This document shows, one piece after another, positions 60,942 through 61,588 of a stretch of 64,000 bases of DNA. Below the pieces are notes generated by a model that was given only the letters and a program-made list of their open reading frames with translations, did not search any database and was not told where the DNA came from. The translations under genes and the position numbers were made by a program. Positions within the stretch are counted from its first letter, which is position 1, and every line of letters begins with the position of its first letter. The DNA is from a virus. The stretch covers positions 52,404 through 116,403 of the IMG/VR virus record IMGVR_UViG_3300032782_000001; one strand, given 5' to 3'.

Positions 60942-61559
60942 GTGGAACTCAATATGTCTTCGGTTCAGCTGCCGATCGCCGGTGGCAGGTCGTTTCCGAG
61001 CTTCGTTCCTGCCTTCATTGAAGCTGGATTCCAGGAACTCATCGTTCCTGCGCTCGCTTCTCAAGACGTCTTCGTAAAGAAAGCCGGTCCTGAAGTCCTC
61101 GGACAGATGTACACGTTCCCCGACAAAGGCGGGCGTCCGCTCTGTCTTGTACCGGAAATTACCGGTGTAGTCCAGGACCTTTGGAATGAAGGCTTCTTCA
61201 GCCAGCTTCCGAAGCCGATTCGTCTCTTCTACGTCAGCCGATGTTGGCGCTACGAACGTCCACAAGCCGGAAGGTATCGAGAATTCACCCAAGTAGGTGT
61301 GGAGATTCTCGGCGCACGGGACGACCAACGAACAGGATGCATCGACCTTCTCCGTAAATGCTTGGATGCCGTAGGGCTTCAAGGCTACGTCATCAACGAC
61401 GCAGTGAAACGTGGACTCGCTTACTACTTGGAAGACGGGTTTGAAGTGGAATTCGCGGCACTCGGAGCGCAGAAACAAATTGCGGGTGGTGGGAAGTACG
61501 CTGAAGGGATCGGATGGGCCATCGGTCTGGAAAGGCTTTTGTTGGCCTTGAGCACATGA
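60942..61559 (+). CDS. histidyl-tRNA synthetase-like class II catalytic-core fragment (HisZ/HisRS-like, no anticodon-binding domain)
   Basis: motif 2 [25 protein letters not shown] and motif 3 [19 protein letters not shown], characteristic of the HisRS/HisZ family; only about 205 aa; start uncertain. Confidence 0.6.
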   Translation: [205 protein letters not shown]

Positions 61560-61565
61560 CAGAAA

Positions 61566-61588
61566 ACGAGCGGAAACGCTCGTTTTGG
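61566..61588 (+). terminator. Rho-independent terminator-like hairpin after the HisRS-like gene
   Basis: aaaacgagcg-gaaa-cgctcgtttt: 5-bp GC stem with GAAA loop, followed by TTTT. Confidence 0.5.

What the first reader, a model, noticed from the sequence alone, without database searches (positions are those of the whole stretch)
60942..61588. Stand-alone HisRS catalytic-core fragment (no anticodon-binding domain) followed by a terminator
Motif 2 ([25 protein letters not shown]) and motif 3 ([18 protein letters not shown]) of the HisRS/HisZ family are present. The protein is only about 205 aa, with no HGH/KMSKS-type N-region and no anticodon-binding domain. It could be a HisZ-like regulator, a tRNA-His-binding or modifying factor, or a gene fragment. 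It ends at a clean terminator-like hairpin (gagcg-gaaa-cgctc-gtttt).
Basis: partly seen in the sequence, partly recalled or inferred. Interest (0 to 1): 0.55.

Follow-up and report, generated by a model that had tools for sequence, protein, structure and literature searches.

The report
Frameshift-gated mini histidyl-tRNA synthetase gene
A stripped-down 208-residue histidyl-tRNA synthetase gene sitting in a huge-phage tRNA array can only be read through a conserved +1 ribosomal frameshift placed exactly at its one and only histidine codon, which looks like a built-in sensor that switches the enzyme on when charged tRNA-His runs short.

Summary
The ORF, its HisRS motifs and the downstream hairpin are real. 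A strong Shine-Dalgarno sequence and ATG at 60932 open 28 codons (MKVRGT…SCL) that form the true HisRS N-terminus. This frame stops at CAT-TGA (61016-61021), and the body continues in the +1 frame to 61559.

The break is not an error. Thirty-four non-redundant homologues carry it, from more than 25 metagenomes, cultured Sinorhizobium phage Phosso and Paraburkholderia/Pseudomonas genomes. All 34 have the invariant sequence [C/G]TT-CA[T/C]. Eighteen have GG[A/G]GG exactly 3 nt upstream, as in the prfB (RF2) cassette, with a His codon where prfB has UGA. Codon-position variability switches phase at the site. A second lineage has the same cassette about 11 codons earlier. The frameshifted proteins are almost histidine-free (2 His in 6,849 residues).

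Best reading: this is a minimal HisRS, a catalytic core without insertion or anticodon-binding domains. Its synthesis requires a programmed +1 slip of Leu/Val-tRNA from [C/G]UU to UUC while the A-site His codon waits for His-tRNAHis. That would be autoregulation analogous to RF2. I found no description in the searched literature. The frameshift itself is very likely. The sensing logic and the tRNA charging are inferred.

The parts
60920..60925 (+). Shine-Dalgarno AAGGAG, 6 nt before the true start codon. It lies 7 nt after the 3' end of tRNA-Ser(GGA).
   Evidence: Sequence read. Equivalent SD+ATG in homologues.
60932..61015 (+). ORF0, codons 1-28 (MKVRGTQYVFGSAADRRWQVVSELRSCL): the true N-terminus of the mini-HisRS, in frame A.
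   Evidence: Frame-A peptides of homologues score 5-55 bits against a profile of in-frame N-termini, while frames B and C score 2.5 bits or less. The invariant G5, T6 and A14 are kept. Third-position variability is in frame A upstream of the site.
61013..61021 (+). Frameshift cassette CTT CAT TGA. It comprises the slippery Leu codon CTT (61013-61015), the His 'sensor' codon CAT (61016-61018) and the 0-frame stop TGA (61019-61021). The proposed +1 slip moves the P-site tRNA from CUU to UUC (61014-61016).
   Evidence: [C/G]TT-CA is invariant in 34/34 non-redundant homologues, including the synonymous T at -1. The site is bracketed by a frame-B TAG immediately 5' of TTC in L018 and L027, and by the frame-A stop.
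61017..61559 (+). ORF1, the +1 frame: 180 codons ([11 protein letters not shown]…LLLALST) plus stop TGA 61557-61559. It carries the motif 1 proline, motif 2, the HisA (VKRGLAYY) and HisB (GGGKY) signatures, and motif 3.
   Evidence: Third-position variability is in frame B downstream of the site.
61563..61586 (+). Stable 10-bp hairpin with a GAAA loop, 4 nt after the stop codon. It could be a weak terminator or an RNA-end/processing hairpin.
   Evidence: dG -15.2 kcal/mol, z -6.2. Not called by the terminator scan.
48702..48778 (+). Phage tRNA-His(GUG) with genomically encoded G-1 (48702), C73 and CCA: the presumed substrate.
   Evidence: ARAGORN and Rfam. Sequence read.
59353..59517 (+). Two tRNA-Leu(GAG) genes (59353-59427 and 59432-59517). 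These are isoacceptors that read CUU and could re-pair with UUC after a +1 slip.
   Evidence: The re-pairing argument rests on the codon-anticodon rules known for prfB (PMC5009743).
60828..60913 (+). tRNA-Ser(GGA) immediately upstream. The gene is embedded in the tRNA array and is probably co-transcribed with it.
   Evidence: No promoter-like site in 60000-62400.
61586..61668 (+). tRNA-like element directly downstream, with a long variable arm and anticodon loop CUUGAAA (UGA, Ser-type).
   Evidence: Sub-threshold Rfam hit of 30.8 bits, E=1e-4. Not called by ARAGORN.

Best explanation
The locus encodes a minimal class II histidyl-tRNA synthetase of 208 aa. It is a catalytic core with motifs 1-3 and the His-specific HisA and HisB signatures, and it has no insertion domain and no anticodon-binding domain.

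Its synthesis requires a programmed +1 ribosomal frameshift. Ribosomes start at ATG 60932 and read 28 codons. With Leu-tRNA on CUU (61013-61015) in the P site, they must next decode the gene's only histidine codon, CAU (61016-61018).
- If His-tRNAHis arrives quickly, His is inserted, the next codon is UGA, and a useless 29-aa peptide is released.
- If His-tRNAHis is scarce, the A site stays empty. The P-site tRNA slips one base from CUU to UUC (GUU to UUC in other family members). Ile-tRNA then reads AUU in the new frame and the full enzyme is made.

Output of the enzyme would therefore rise when its own product, His-tRNAHis, falls. This is the logic of prfB/RF2 autoregulation with the UGA 'sensor' replaced by a cognate sense codon. 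The enzyme then charges tRNA-His through acceptor-end recognition alone (G-1:C73, motif-2 loop arginines). The phage's own tRNA-His is a likely substrate.

Shown: the two-frame architecture, its conservation, the cassette, the HisRS fold and residues, and the His-free composition. Inferred: the identity of the slipping tRNA, the dependence on His-tRNAHis, and the aminoacylation activity.
For: (1) SD+ATG at 60932 lies in a frame that ends at CAT-TGA. The body is in the +1 frame, and the joined length equals that of in-frame homologues exactly.

(2) The same break occurs in 34 non-redundant genes of 49-75% identity. They come from IMG/VR huge-phage contigs of 250-600 kb, other metagenomes, cultured Sinorhizobium phage Phosso, and Paraburkholderia/Pseudomonas genomes.

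(3) Positions -2 to +1 (TT CA) are invariant in 34/34. This includes a synonymous third position, where the mean third-position entropy upstream is 1.65 bits. The codon counts are CTT 22, GTT 12, CAT 28 and CAC 6.

(4) Entropy periodicity flips at the site. By frame-A codon position it is 1.14/0.78/1.65 upstream and 1.56/0.81/0.51 downstream.

(5) The frame-A peptide is homologous to in-frame N-termini, and frames B and C are not.

(6) Stops bracket the site to [C/G]TT-CAY (L018 and L027).

(7) GG[A/G]GG lies exactly 3 nt 5' of [C/G]TT in 18/34, and a 4-nt SD core is present in 9 more. A 3-nt spacing is the one reported for +1 stimulatory SDs and prfB (PMC5009743; PMC3711429). L014 reads CGG GGG TAT CTT CAT. 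From memory, E. coli prfB reads AGG GGG UAU CUU UGA.

(8) None of 28 in-frame homologues has the cassette or His at that column. Seven in-frame genes of the same clade have I/V/T/K/R there, which matches the Ile/Thr predicted by a P-site Leu/Val slip.

(9) A second lineage (L036, L037, L042, L092) carries the same cassette, with its purine-rich SD-like stretch, three spacer bases and CTT CAT, about 11 codons earlier.

(10) Frameshifted proteins are His-free: 2 His in 6,849 aa, and 31 of 33 have none. In-frame relatives have 0.47%, cellular HisRS 0.95% and window ORFs 2.37%. P=5e-12 even against the in-frame rate.

(11) The AF2 model has pLDDT 90. The junction lies inside helix 12-30 (pLDDT 97-98). 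The top structural hits are HisRS.

(12) The motif-2 loop residues that contact the acceptor end in the Tth HisRS-tRNA complex (E114, R115, R120, R122) are conserved. The insertion-domain contacts were largely dispensable there (PMC4357726).

(13) The phage tRNA-His has G-1:C73.

(14) The 2016 recoding review states that no natural example of productive 'hungry-codon' frameshifting for starvation-specific proteins was known.
Against: There is no experimental or expression data. Frameshift efficiency and its dependence on His-tRNAHis are inferred.

The window itself and its two closest relatives, plus four other genes, lack the SD-like stimulator (7 of 34 in all). No downstream RNA structure was detected in the window (z=-0.74). 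Efficiency here may therefore be low or rely on unknown stimulators.

GUU to UUC re-pairing is poorer than CUU to UUC because of a first-position mismatch.

In 19/34 genes a stop codon follows CAY directly, which also fits a stop-dependent shift with tRNAHis in the P site.

In-frame relatives are also His-poor, so His avoidance is not exclusive to the frameshifted genes.

A HisRS without both the anticodon-binding and insertion domains has not, to my knowledge, been shown to aminoacylate efficiently. The score to the curated hisS model is below its cut-off.
Confidence: 0.62

Rival explanations
1. Stop-codon-dependent +1 frameshift of the strict prfB type. tRNAHis sits on CAU in the P site, the slow A-site codon is UGA, and the shift senses release-factor activity rather than His-tRNAHis. 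The product would carry His at the junction.
For: TGA or TAA follows CAY directly in 19/34 genes, including the window. prfB works this way.
Against: In 15/34 genes a sense codon follows CAY, and the stop is 1-12 codons further on. tRNAHis re-pairing on AUU or ACU would have two mismatches. The invariant TT at -2 and -1 and the 3-nt SD spacing both point to [C/G]UU as the P-site codon. In-frame relatives never have His at that column, but they do have I/V/T. The His-free composition is left unexplained.
Confidence: 0.12
2. A real +1 ribosomal frameshift that is constitutive. It would be a fixed, low-efficiency 'throttle', or tolerated correction of an old indel, with no sensing role for the His codon.
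For: Programmed frameshifts often just set a ratio. The window clade lacks the SD stimulator. No regulation data exist.
Against: A neutral or merely corrective indel would not keep an invariant His codon, a synonymous T and an SD at 3 nt across 34 lineages. It would not reappear at a second position in the gene. It would not coincide with near-total loss of His codons elsewhere in the mRNA. Engineered prfB-type sites with a sense codon in the A site have been used to measure aa-tRNA selection rates (Curran & Yarus; from memory, not retrieved here).
Confidence: 0.12
3. The protein is not a tRNA-charging enzyme. It would be a HisZ-like regulator, or a His-AMP-forming ligase acting on another acceptor, as other truncated aaRS paralogues do (EpmA/PoxA, GluQRS, amino-acid:carrier-protein ligases). 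This rival concerns the enzyme's function and is compatible with the frameshift reading in Best explanation.
For: There is no anticodon-binding or insertion domain. The score is below the curated hisS cut-off, 154 against 286.75 bits. Bacterial copies sit among ordinary metabolic genes, not next to tRNAs.
Against: All HisRS catalytic and histidine-binding signatures and the tRNA-contacting motif-2 loop residues are conserved, and they are under strong purifying selection (66% mean column identity). hisS outscores hisZ by 154 to 87 bits. The gene lies in tRNA arrays, and in Phosso it lies about 300 nt from tRNA-His. A His-codon sensor makes most sense if the product restores His-tRNAHis.
Confidence: 0.15
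4. One reading: an independent 205-aa (or shorter) protein initiated inside frame B (GTG 60942), with the upstream ATG frame irrelevant.
For: Gene callers, including the GenBank annotation of phage Phosso, call such frame-B ORFs.
Against: There is no SD before GTG 60942, while a strong SD precedes ATG 60932. Frame-B sequence upstream of the site is not conserved and carries a stop immediately before TTC in L018 and L027. The N-terminal strand and helix, which are encoded in frame A, are part of the HisRS core.
Confidence: 0.03
5. Pseudogene, sequencing or assembly error, or transcriptional slippage.
For: A single-base frame break in a metagenomic contig is most often an error. One homologue (L041) has a different, isolated break.
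Against: The same break is found in more than 25 independent assemblies and in isolate genomes. Both halves are under purifying selection in their own frames. The window has no homopolymer run at the site.
Confidence: 0.02
6. Two polypeptides by termination-reinitiation (AUU overlapping UGA), or quadruplet decoding by a special phage tRNA.
For: AUUGA resembles overlapping stop-start arrangements. Huge phages encode many unusual tRNAs.
Against: Six genes have ACU instead of AUU, and 15 have no adjacent stop. The junction lies in the middle of a confidently predicted helix. The same cassette occurs in bacterial chromosomal contexts with no tRNA gene called in the 2.8-4.5 kb fetched around each copy.
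Confidence: 0.03

Closest known systems
prfB (release factor 2) autoregulatory +1 programmed frameshift
   Same: A short ORF0 is followed by the body in the +1 frame. The P-site codon is a slippery YUU-type codon that re-pairs in +1 with first-position wobble. An internal Shine-Dalgarno sequence lies exactly 3 nt upstream (18/34 here). The A-site codon is one whose decoding depends on the gene's own product.
   Different: The A-site 'sensor' is a sense codon (CAU/CAC, His), not UGA. The stop merely follows it, directly in 19/34 genes. GUU is used as well as CUU. The re-paired codon is UUC, not UUU. The window's own copy lacks the SD. The gene is a synthetase, not a release factor.
Canonical bacterial histidyl-tRNA synthetase (hisS; PDB 1adj, 4rdx, 1kmm)
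   Same: Class II fold with TMq 0.85-0.90. Motifs 1-3, the HisA (RGLxYY) and HisB (GGGRY) signatures, and motif-2 loop residues E, R, R, R are all present.
   Different: It is half the size (208 against about 420 aa). The insertion domain (Tth 172-228), part of the loop before motif 3, and the whole anticodon-binding domain (Tth 331-421) are absent. It scores below the TIGR00442 cut-off. It is almost His-free.
HisZ (ATP phosphoribosyltransferase regulatory subunit)
   Same: A HisRS paralogue that lacks a functional anticodon-binding role. There are weak profile hits (87 bits; PDB 3od1 and 1z7m, E 1e-9 to 1e-10).
   Different: The NCBIfam and PDB HisZ entries that it hits are 314-434 aa long. 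HisZ works with HisG (from memory); HisG was not searched for here. The score is lower than to hisS, and the catalytic arginines are retained here.
Hungry-codon +1 frameshifting (yeast Ty1 CUU-AGG-C; Gallant's starvation-induced shifts)
   Same: Peptidyl-tRNALeu slips on CUU while a slow A-site sense codon waits for a scarce aminoacyl-tRNA.
   Different: In Ty1 the limitation is a constitutively rare tRNA, not a physiological signal tied to the gene's function. The 2016 review states that no natural productive starvation-specific case was known.
his operon leader attenuation and T-box control of aaRS genes
   Same: They sense charged tRNA-His (or uncharged tRNA) to control histidine-related or synthetase genes. 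(From established knowledge.)
   Different: Those act on transcription termination through leader peptides or riboswitch-like RNAs. Here the sensor codon is inside the coding sequence and acts through the reading frame.
Engineered HisRS catalytic-domain fragments (N-cat) and HisRS 'urzymes'
   Same: HisRS cores stripped of the anticodon-binding domain that retain amino-acid activation and reduced aminoacylation. (From memory of the Francklyn and Carter laboratories' work; not retrieved here.)
   Different: Those are laboratory constructs. This is a natural, widespread family under strong selection, and it also lacks the insertion domain.

Membership tests
Histidyl-tRNA synthetase (class IIa, hisS) | Class II catalytic fold with motifs 1, 2 and 3 | tested here: met
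   Pfam tRNA-synt_His 2e-18 and tRNA-synt_2b 2e-12. AF2 pLDDT 90, Foldseek TMq 0.90 to 1adj. PDB profile hit E=3.6e-44.
Histidyl-tRNA synthetase (class IIa, hisS) | Histidine-specific signatures HisA (RGLDYY, catalytic Arg) and HisB (GGRYD), plus the histidine-binding E/T of the 'PEgT' motif | tested here: met
   [8 protein letters not shown], GGGKY and VPEIT are present in the window. The equivalent columns are invariant in the family alignment (R160, G161, L162, Y164, Y165, G185-187, Y189, P74, E75, T77). They align to the Tth HisRS counterparts.
Histidyl-tRNA synthetase (class IIa, hisS) | C-terminal anticodon-binding domain | tested here: not met
   The protein ends 7 residues after motif 3. 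The alignment to Tth HisRS stops at residue 318 of 421.
Histidyl-tRNA synthetase (class IIa, hisS) | Insertion domain between motif 2 and HisA | tested here: not met
   Tth residues 158-228 have no counterpart. About 27 residues link motif 2 to HisA.
Histidyl-tRNA synthetase (class IIa, hisS) | Score above the curated equivalog cut-off (TIGR00442) | tested here: not met
   154 bits against a cut-off of 286.75.
Histidyl-tRNA synthetase (class IIa, hisS) | ATP-dependent histidylation of tRNAHis bearing G-1:C73 | not testable with these tools
   Indirect evidence only. Motif-2 loop contact residues are conserved. The phage tRNA-His has G-1:C73.
HisZ | Score above the curated cut-off (TIGR00443); no requirement for catalytic residues; partner HisG | tested here: not met
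   87 bits against a cut-off of 271.65, lower than to hisS. Catalytic residues are retained. HisG was not searched for in the window.
prfB-type programmed +1 frameshift cassette | ORF0/ORF1 in a 0/+1 arrangement, conserved across homologues, with both parts under selection in their own frames | tested here: met
   34 non-redundant genes. Entropy phase switches at the site. The frame-A N-terminus is homologous to in-frame relatives.
prfB-type programmed +1 frameshift cassette | Slippery P-site codon (YUU) that can re-pair in the +1 frame | tested here: met
   [C/G]TT followed by C is invariant in 34/34. CUU to UUC gives G·U, A-U and G-C with anticodon GAG. The window carries tRNA-Leu(GAG) genes.
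prfB-type programmed +1 frameshift cassette | Internal Shine-Dalgarno stimulator 3 nt 5' of the shift codon | tested here: inconclusive
   Strict GG[A/G]GG at exactly 3 nt in 18/34, a 4-nt core in 9/34, and absent in 7/34 including the window (CGT TCC TGC CTT). Spacing rule from PMC5009743.
prfB-type programmed +1 frameshift cassette | In-frame UGA stop as the slow A-site codon | tested here: not met
   The codon after the slippery codon is always CAY (His). A stop follows CAY in only 19/34.
prfB-type programmed +1 frameshift cassette | Frameshift efficiency inversely controlled by the gene product | not testable with these tools
   Inferred from the identity of the sensor codon and the His-free composition.
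Rho-independent terminator | GC-rich hairpin followed by a run of at least 5 U | tested here: inconclusive
   The hairpin is strong (-15.2 kcal/mol, z -6.2). There are only 4 U, and they are paired to an upstream A-tract. It was not called by the scan.

The most novel reading that the evidence does not exclude
A natural 'hungry-codon' riboregulator. This would be the first aminoacyl-tRNA synthetase whose synthesis is autoregulated by a programmed +1 ribosomal frameshift at its own cognate codon. It is a prfB-like cassette in which the stop-codon sensor has been replaced by a His codon. It sits in a His-free mRNA that encodes the smallest natural HisRS. It is widespread in huge phages and present in some Burkholderiales and Pseudomonas, and it evolved at two different positions in the gene.
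Probability: 0.5. Interest if true: 0.92.

Novelty: new variant of a known kind. Interest (0 to 1): 0.86.

Why it matters
If confirmed, this adds a new class to the short list of bacterial and phage programmed +1 frameshifts. It would be a natural case of productive frameshifting at a starved sense codon. The 2016 recoding review explicitly says no such case was known.

It would also reveal a new way to regulate a synthetase, in which the coding sequence itself measures the charged-tRNA pool.

It defines a natural approximately 200-residue HisRS that works, if it works, without anticodon or insertion domains. That bears on models of early synthetase evolution and on the design of compact orthogonal synthetases.

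It corrects systematic mis-annotation. The gene is called with a false N-terminus in metagenome protein sets and in the GenBank record of phage Phosso.

Phosso and its host Sinorhizobium meliloti are cultured, so the hypothesis is directly testable. The cassette could also be re-targeted as a genetically encoded sensor for any aminoacyl-tRNA by swapping the A-site codon.

Tried and rejected
- Promoter scan of 60000-62400 found none.
- Folding of 61000-61080 found no significant structure downstream of the shift site (z -0.74). I did not run a family-wide covariation test.
- PHROGs gave no match. BFVD contains only distant small class II-like phage proteins of 11-19% identity.
- The afdb50 fold library was unavailable.
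- Exact-sequence look-up of the window's own called protein P0001 failed, so sample provenance was not recovered.
- The metagenome and genome scans were dominated by ordinary full-length HisRS beyond the first 16 and first 5 loci respectively.
- Nine literature searches (one rejected as malformed) turned up no description of a frameshifted or frameshift-regulated HisRS. The targeted reads were the Atkins 2016 review, Antonov 2013, Al-Shayeb 2020 and the Sinorhizobium jumbo-phage paper. This library lacks most subscription-journal papers, so absence is not proof.
- Considered and rejected: transcriptional slippage (no homopolymer in the window), AUU reinitiation (ACU variants exist), and recoded stop codons (frame A after TGA is not HisRS-like).
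Full report
**1. What is at the coordinates**

The window's last 19 kb is a dense array of about 46 tRNA genes on the + strand, interspersed with small ORFs. Between tRNA-Ser(GGA) (60828-60913) and a tRNA-like element (61586-61668) lies the reported ORF. In frame B it runs 60942(GTG)-61559 and encodes 205 aa. Pfam assigns it to tRNA-synt_His (E=2e-18, profile positions 23-148 of 308) and tRNA-synt_2b. The quoted motif-2 and motif-3 strings are present.

It has only four U and was not called by the terminator scan. The sequence-level observation therefore holds.

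**2. The gene model is different**

A strong Shine-Dalgarno sequence (AAGGAG, 60920-60925) precedes an ATG at 60932, and this ATG is in another frame. That frame reads MKVRGTQYVFGSAADRRWQVVSELRSCLH and stops at TGA 61019-61021.

This peptide is the canonical HisRS N-terminus. Compare M(I/L)RGT…G.EA…LR in in-frame family members P0010, P0013, P0023 and P0117. Joining it to frame B by skipping one base gives a 208-aa protein that is exactly co-linear with the in-frame homologues.

**3. The frame break is conserved and has a defined cassette**

A protein search found more than 1,900 relatives. The best 120 are almost all about 140-250 aa, and several lie on contigs of 400-550 kb. About 65 of the 120 have non-homologous 'frame-B' N-termini, and 46 start with MxRGT.

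I recovered DNA for these from the following sources:
- encoding contigs;
- IMG/VR, 56 mini-HisRS loci, many on viral contigs of 250-600 kb;
- JGI metagenomes;
- GTDB genomes;
- GenBank phages.

This gave 34 non-redundant genes with the identical architecture. Each has about 28 codons in frame A that end in …[L/V]-H, and the body is in +1.

Anchored on the His codon, the alignment shows the following:
- Positions -2, -1, 0 and +1 (TT CA) are invariant in 34/34.
- The P-site codon is CTT (22) or GTT (12). Its third base is a synonymous position and is always T, whereas frame-A third positions upstream average 1.65 bits of entropy.
- The His codon is CAT (28) or CAC (6).
- The next 0-frame codon is TGA (18) or TAA (1). 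In the other 15 it is a sense codon, with the stop 1-12 codons later.

None of 28 in-frame homologues has this motif or a His at the equivalent column.

**4. Independent evidence that the frame really changes there**

(a) Mean nucleotide entropy by frame-A codon position is 1.14/0.78/1.65 upstream and 1.56/0.81/0.51 downstream. The wobble position moves by one base at the site.

(b) A profile of in-frame N-termini scores the frame-A translations at 5-55 bits (mostly above 40). Frames B and C score 2.5 bits or less.

(c) In L018 and L027 a frame-B TAG lies immediately 5' of TTC, and in most genes the frame-A stop lies immediately 3' of CAY. This pins the shift to the [C/G]TT-CAY dinucleotide-codon step.

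(d) Six genes have CAC, which makes the overlapping +1 codon ACU. This excludes AUU reinitiation.

(e) The junction falls in the middle of a confidently predicted helix (residues 12-30, pLDDT 97-98).

(f) There is no homopolymer in the window, which argues against transcriptional slippage.

(g) The break recurs in more than 25 independent assemblies and in isolate genomes. It is therefore not a sequencing artefact.

**5. Resemblance to prfB and the proposed mechanism**

In 18/34 genes GG[A/G]GG lies exactly 3 nt upstream of the [C/G]TT codon, and nine more have a 4-nt SD core there. A 3-nt spacing is the one reported for SD stimulators of +1 frameshifting, against 9-14 nt for -1 (PMC5009743). 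The prfB consensus is SD + CTT_TGA_C (PMC3711429). L014 reads CGG GGG TAT CTT CAT. From memory, E. coli prfB reads AGG GGG UAU CUU UGA.

The cassette is thus the RF2 cassette with UGA replaced by a His codon. By analogy, peptidyl-tRNALeu (anticodon GAG; the window encodes two such tRNAs) would slip from CUU to UUC while the A site waits. The re-pairing is G·U, A-U, G-C. Ile or Thr would then be read in the new frame.

Four observations favour this over a shift with tRNAHis in the P site:
- the invariant TT;
- the SD spacing;
- the 15 genes without an adjacent stop;
- the seven in-frame genes of the same clade, which have I/V/T/K/R and never H at the junction column.

In this geometry the frameshift competes with decoding of CAY. 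Its frequency should therefore rise when His-tRNAHis, the product of the encoded enzyme, is scarce. That is the autoregulatory logic of RF2 transferred to a synthetase.

The review by Atkins et al. notes that slow A-site ('hungry') codons promote +1 shifts. It also says that no natural example of such shifting producing a starvation-specific protein was known.

**6. Histidine avoidance**

Under this model the CAY at the shift site is the only His codon the ribosome meets. The composition data are as follows:

| Set | His content | Note |
|---|---|---|
| Joined proteins of frameshifted genes | 2 His in 6,849 residues | 31 of 33 have none |
| In-frame relatives | 0.47% | |
| Full-length cellular HisRS (122 ORFs) | 0.95% | |
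| Long ORFs of the window | 2.37% | |
| Top 120 database proteins, frameshift-like bodies | 0.04% | |
| Top 120 database proteins, in-frame bodies | 0.18% | |

The depletion in the frameshifted genes gives P=5e-12 even against the in-frame rate. An mRNA with no other His codon can be translated when His-tRNAHis is limiting, which is what a rescue enzyme with a single sensor codon requires.

**7. Two positions, many lineages**

Four genes in the other major clade (L036, L037, L042, L092) carry the same cassette (CGG AGG NNN CTT CAT in three of them, AGG CGG CGT CTT CAT in L037) about 11 codons earlier in the protein. The joined length again matches in-frame neighbours.

On a neighbour-joining tree the main site is spread over a large clade with nested in-frame lineages. 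The pattern implies old origin with losses, multiple gains, or both. Either reading indicates selection for the cassette. The NJ tree is crude, and I draw no stronger inference from it.

**8. What the protein is**

- The family alignment has 66% mean column identity.
- The AF2 model has pLDDT 90 and pTM 0.86.
- The best structural matches are HisRS: 1adj TMq 0.90, 4rdx 0.86, 1kmm 0.87.
- The PDB profile search aligns the protein to T. thermophilus HisRS residues 6-157 and 229-318, E=3.6e-44.
- The insertion domain (Tth 172-228), part of the loop before motif 3, and the anticodon-binding domain (Tth 331-421) are missing. Domain limits are from PMC4357726.
- Motif 2 ([13 protein letters not shown]), HisA (KRGLAYY), HisB (GGGKY) and motif 3 (GWAIGLER) are retained.
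- The counterparts of Tth E114, R115, R120 and R122, which contact the acceptor end, are conserved. Alanine substitution of two of the insertion-domain contact residues (R197, K209) cost little activity.
- NCBIfam scores hisS at 154 bits, below its cut-off, and hisZ at 87 bits. PHROGs has no family for it.

The window's tRNA-His (48703-48778) has an encoded G-1 (48702), C73 and CCA. In phage Phosso, tRNA-His lies about 300 nt upstream of the gene.

I therefore read the protein as a minimal HisRS that recognises tRNAHis by its acceptor end. This is inferred and was not tested. A different acceptor for His-AMP cannot be excluded.

**9. Distribution and annotation**

The family is prominent in huge phages. 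The window also encodes RtcB, a tRNA array, an Rv2179c-like exoribonuclease and a group I intron.

Cultured Sinorhizobium phage Phosso (PV764938.1, 469 kb) has the frameshifted form, …CGA GGT TGT CTT CAT CGA AGC TGA. Its GenBank CDS starts at an internal frame-B ATG, so the frameshift is unannotated.

The same cassette occurs in Paraburkholderia aspalathi, P. caffeinilytica, a Pseudomonas isolate and a Burkholderiales MAG. There it sits next to ordinary metabolic genes, with no tRNAs nearby. The device is therefore not phage-specific and does not need phage tRNAs.

**10. Caveats**

- Nothing here measures frameshifting.
- The window and its two nearest relatives, plus four other genes (seven of 34 in all), lack the SD-like element.
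- I found no downstream structure in the window.
- GUU to UUC re-pairing is imperfect.
- In-frame relatives are also His-poor.
- The literature search covered open-access papers and bioRxiv only.

My confidence that a programmed +1 frameshift is required is about 0.9. My confidence that the shift is driven by the His codon in the A site and acts as a His-tRNAHis sensor is about 0.6, and the same for the protein charging tRNAHis.

**11. Verdict**

The locus is a new variant of two known kinds at once, a HisRS and a prfB-type autoregulatory frameshift. It is directly testable in a cultured phage-host pair.

Noticed in passing
window 61586-61668 (+): tRNA-like element directly after the mini-HisRS hairpin. 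It has a 7-bp acceptor stem, a long variable arm and anticodon loop CUUGAAA (UGA, i.e. tRNA-Ser(UGA)-like), with a C·A mismatch in the anticodon stem. ARAGORN missed it, and it is below Rfam gathering score (30.8 bits to the tRNA-Sec model).
   Followed up: partly
window 47452-47519, 58807-58887, 59947-60027 (+): Three further tRNA matches found by Rfam at gathering threshold that ARAGORN did not list. The array therefore holds at least 47 tRNA genes.
   Followed up: no
window 45647-45877 (+): Group I catalytic intron (Rfam RF00028, 76.6 bits) at the start of the tRNA array. The host gene was not identified.
   Followed up: no
window 16789-17997 (+): RtcB tRNA-splicing/repair ligase (Pfam E=8e-125). 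Together with the tRNA array and the synthetase, it suggests a tRNA repair and replacement module.
   Followed up: no
window 30600-33206 (-): An 868-aa protein with Major Vault Protein shoulder and vault-repeat domains (E=4e-29 and 1e-10). This is unusual for a phage genome.
   Followed up: no
window 60192-60704 (+) and 61696-62262 (+): An HNH endonuclease and an Rv2179c-like 3'-5' exoribonuclease flank the mini-HisRS, each sitting between tRNA genes.
   Followed up: no
L036, L037, L042, L092 (IMG/VR and JGI loci): Second class of frameshifted mini-HisRS genes. They carry the same cassette (CGG AGG NNN CTT CAT in three, AGG CGG CGT CTT CAT in L037) about 11 codons earlier in the protein, in a different major clade. 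This indicates independent gain or relocation of the cassette.
   Followed up: partly
L165, L166, L167, L168 (Paraburkholderia aspalathi, Pseudomonas sp. Au-Pse12, Burkholderiales MAG, P. caffeinilytica): The frameshifted mini-HisRS also occurs in bacterial genomes next to ordinary genes (F420/NADP oxidoreductase-like, pirin, DUF4349). No tRNA genes were found within the 2.8-4.5 kb fetched around each copy.
   Followed up: partly
L164 = Sinorhizobium phage Phosso PV764938.1, 4096-4686: The GenBank CDS 'histidyl-tRNA synthetase' starts at an internal frame-B ATG (MQSTPSEVVFIEADY…). The true SD+ATG and 28 codons upstream, and the frameshift, are unannotated. tRNA-His lies about 300 nt upstream.
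   Followed up: yes
L041 (IMGVR_UViG_3300036766_000988): This family member has an in-frame N-terminus but a different frame break near codon 73, without the cassette. It is probably an assembly error or a pseudogene.
   Followed up: no
L100-L163 and L169-L244 (cellular HisRS loci): Full-length cellular HisRS ORFs are themselves histidine-poor (0.95% His; 9 of 122 have none), compared with 2.37% in the window's long ORFs.
   Followed up: partly
L004 5636-8822 (419,976-bp contig): In a related huge phage the mini-HisRS is followed by a Ro60/TROVE-vWA protein, a tRNA_bind (PF01588) protein and a VapE-like protein. This is another RNA-quality-control neighbourhood.
   Followed up: no
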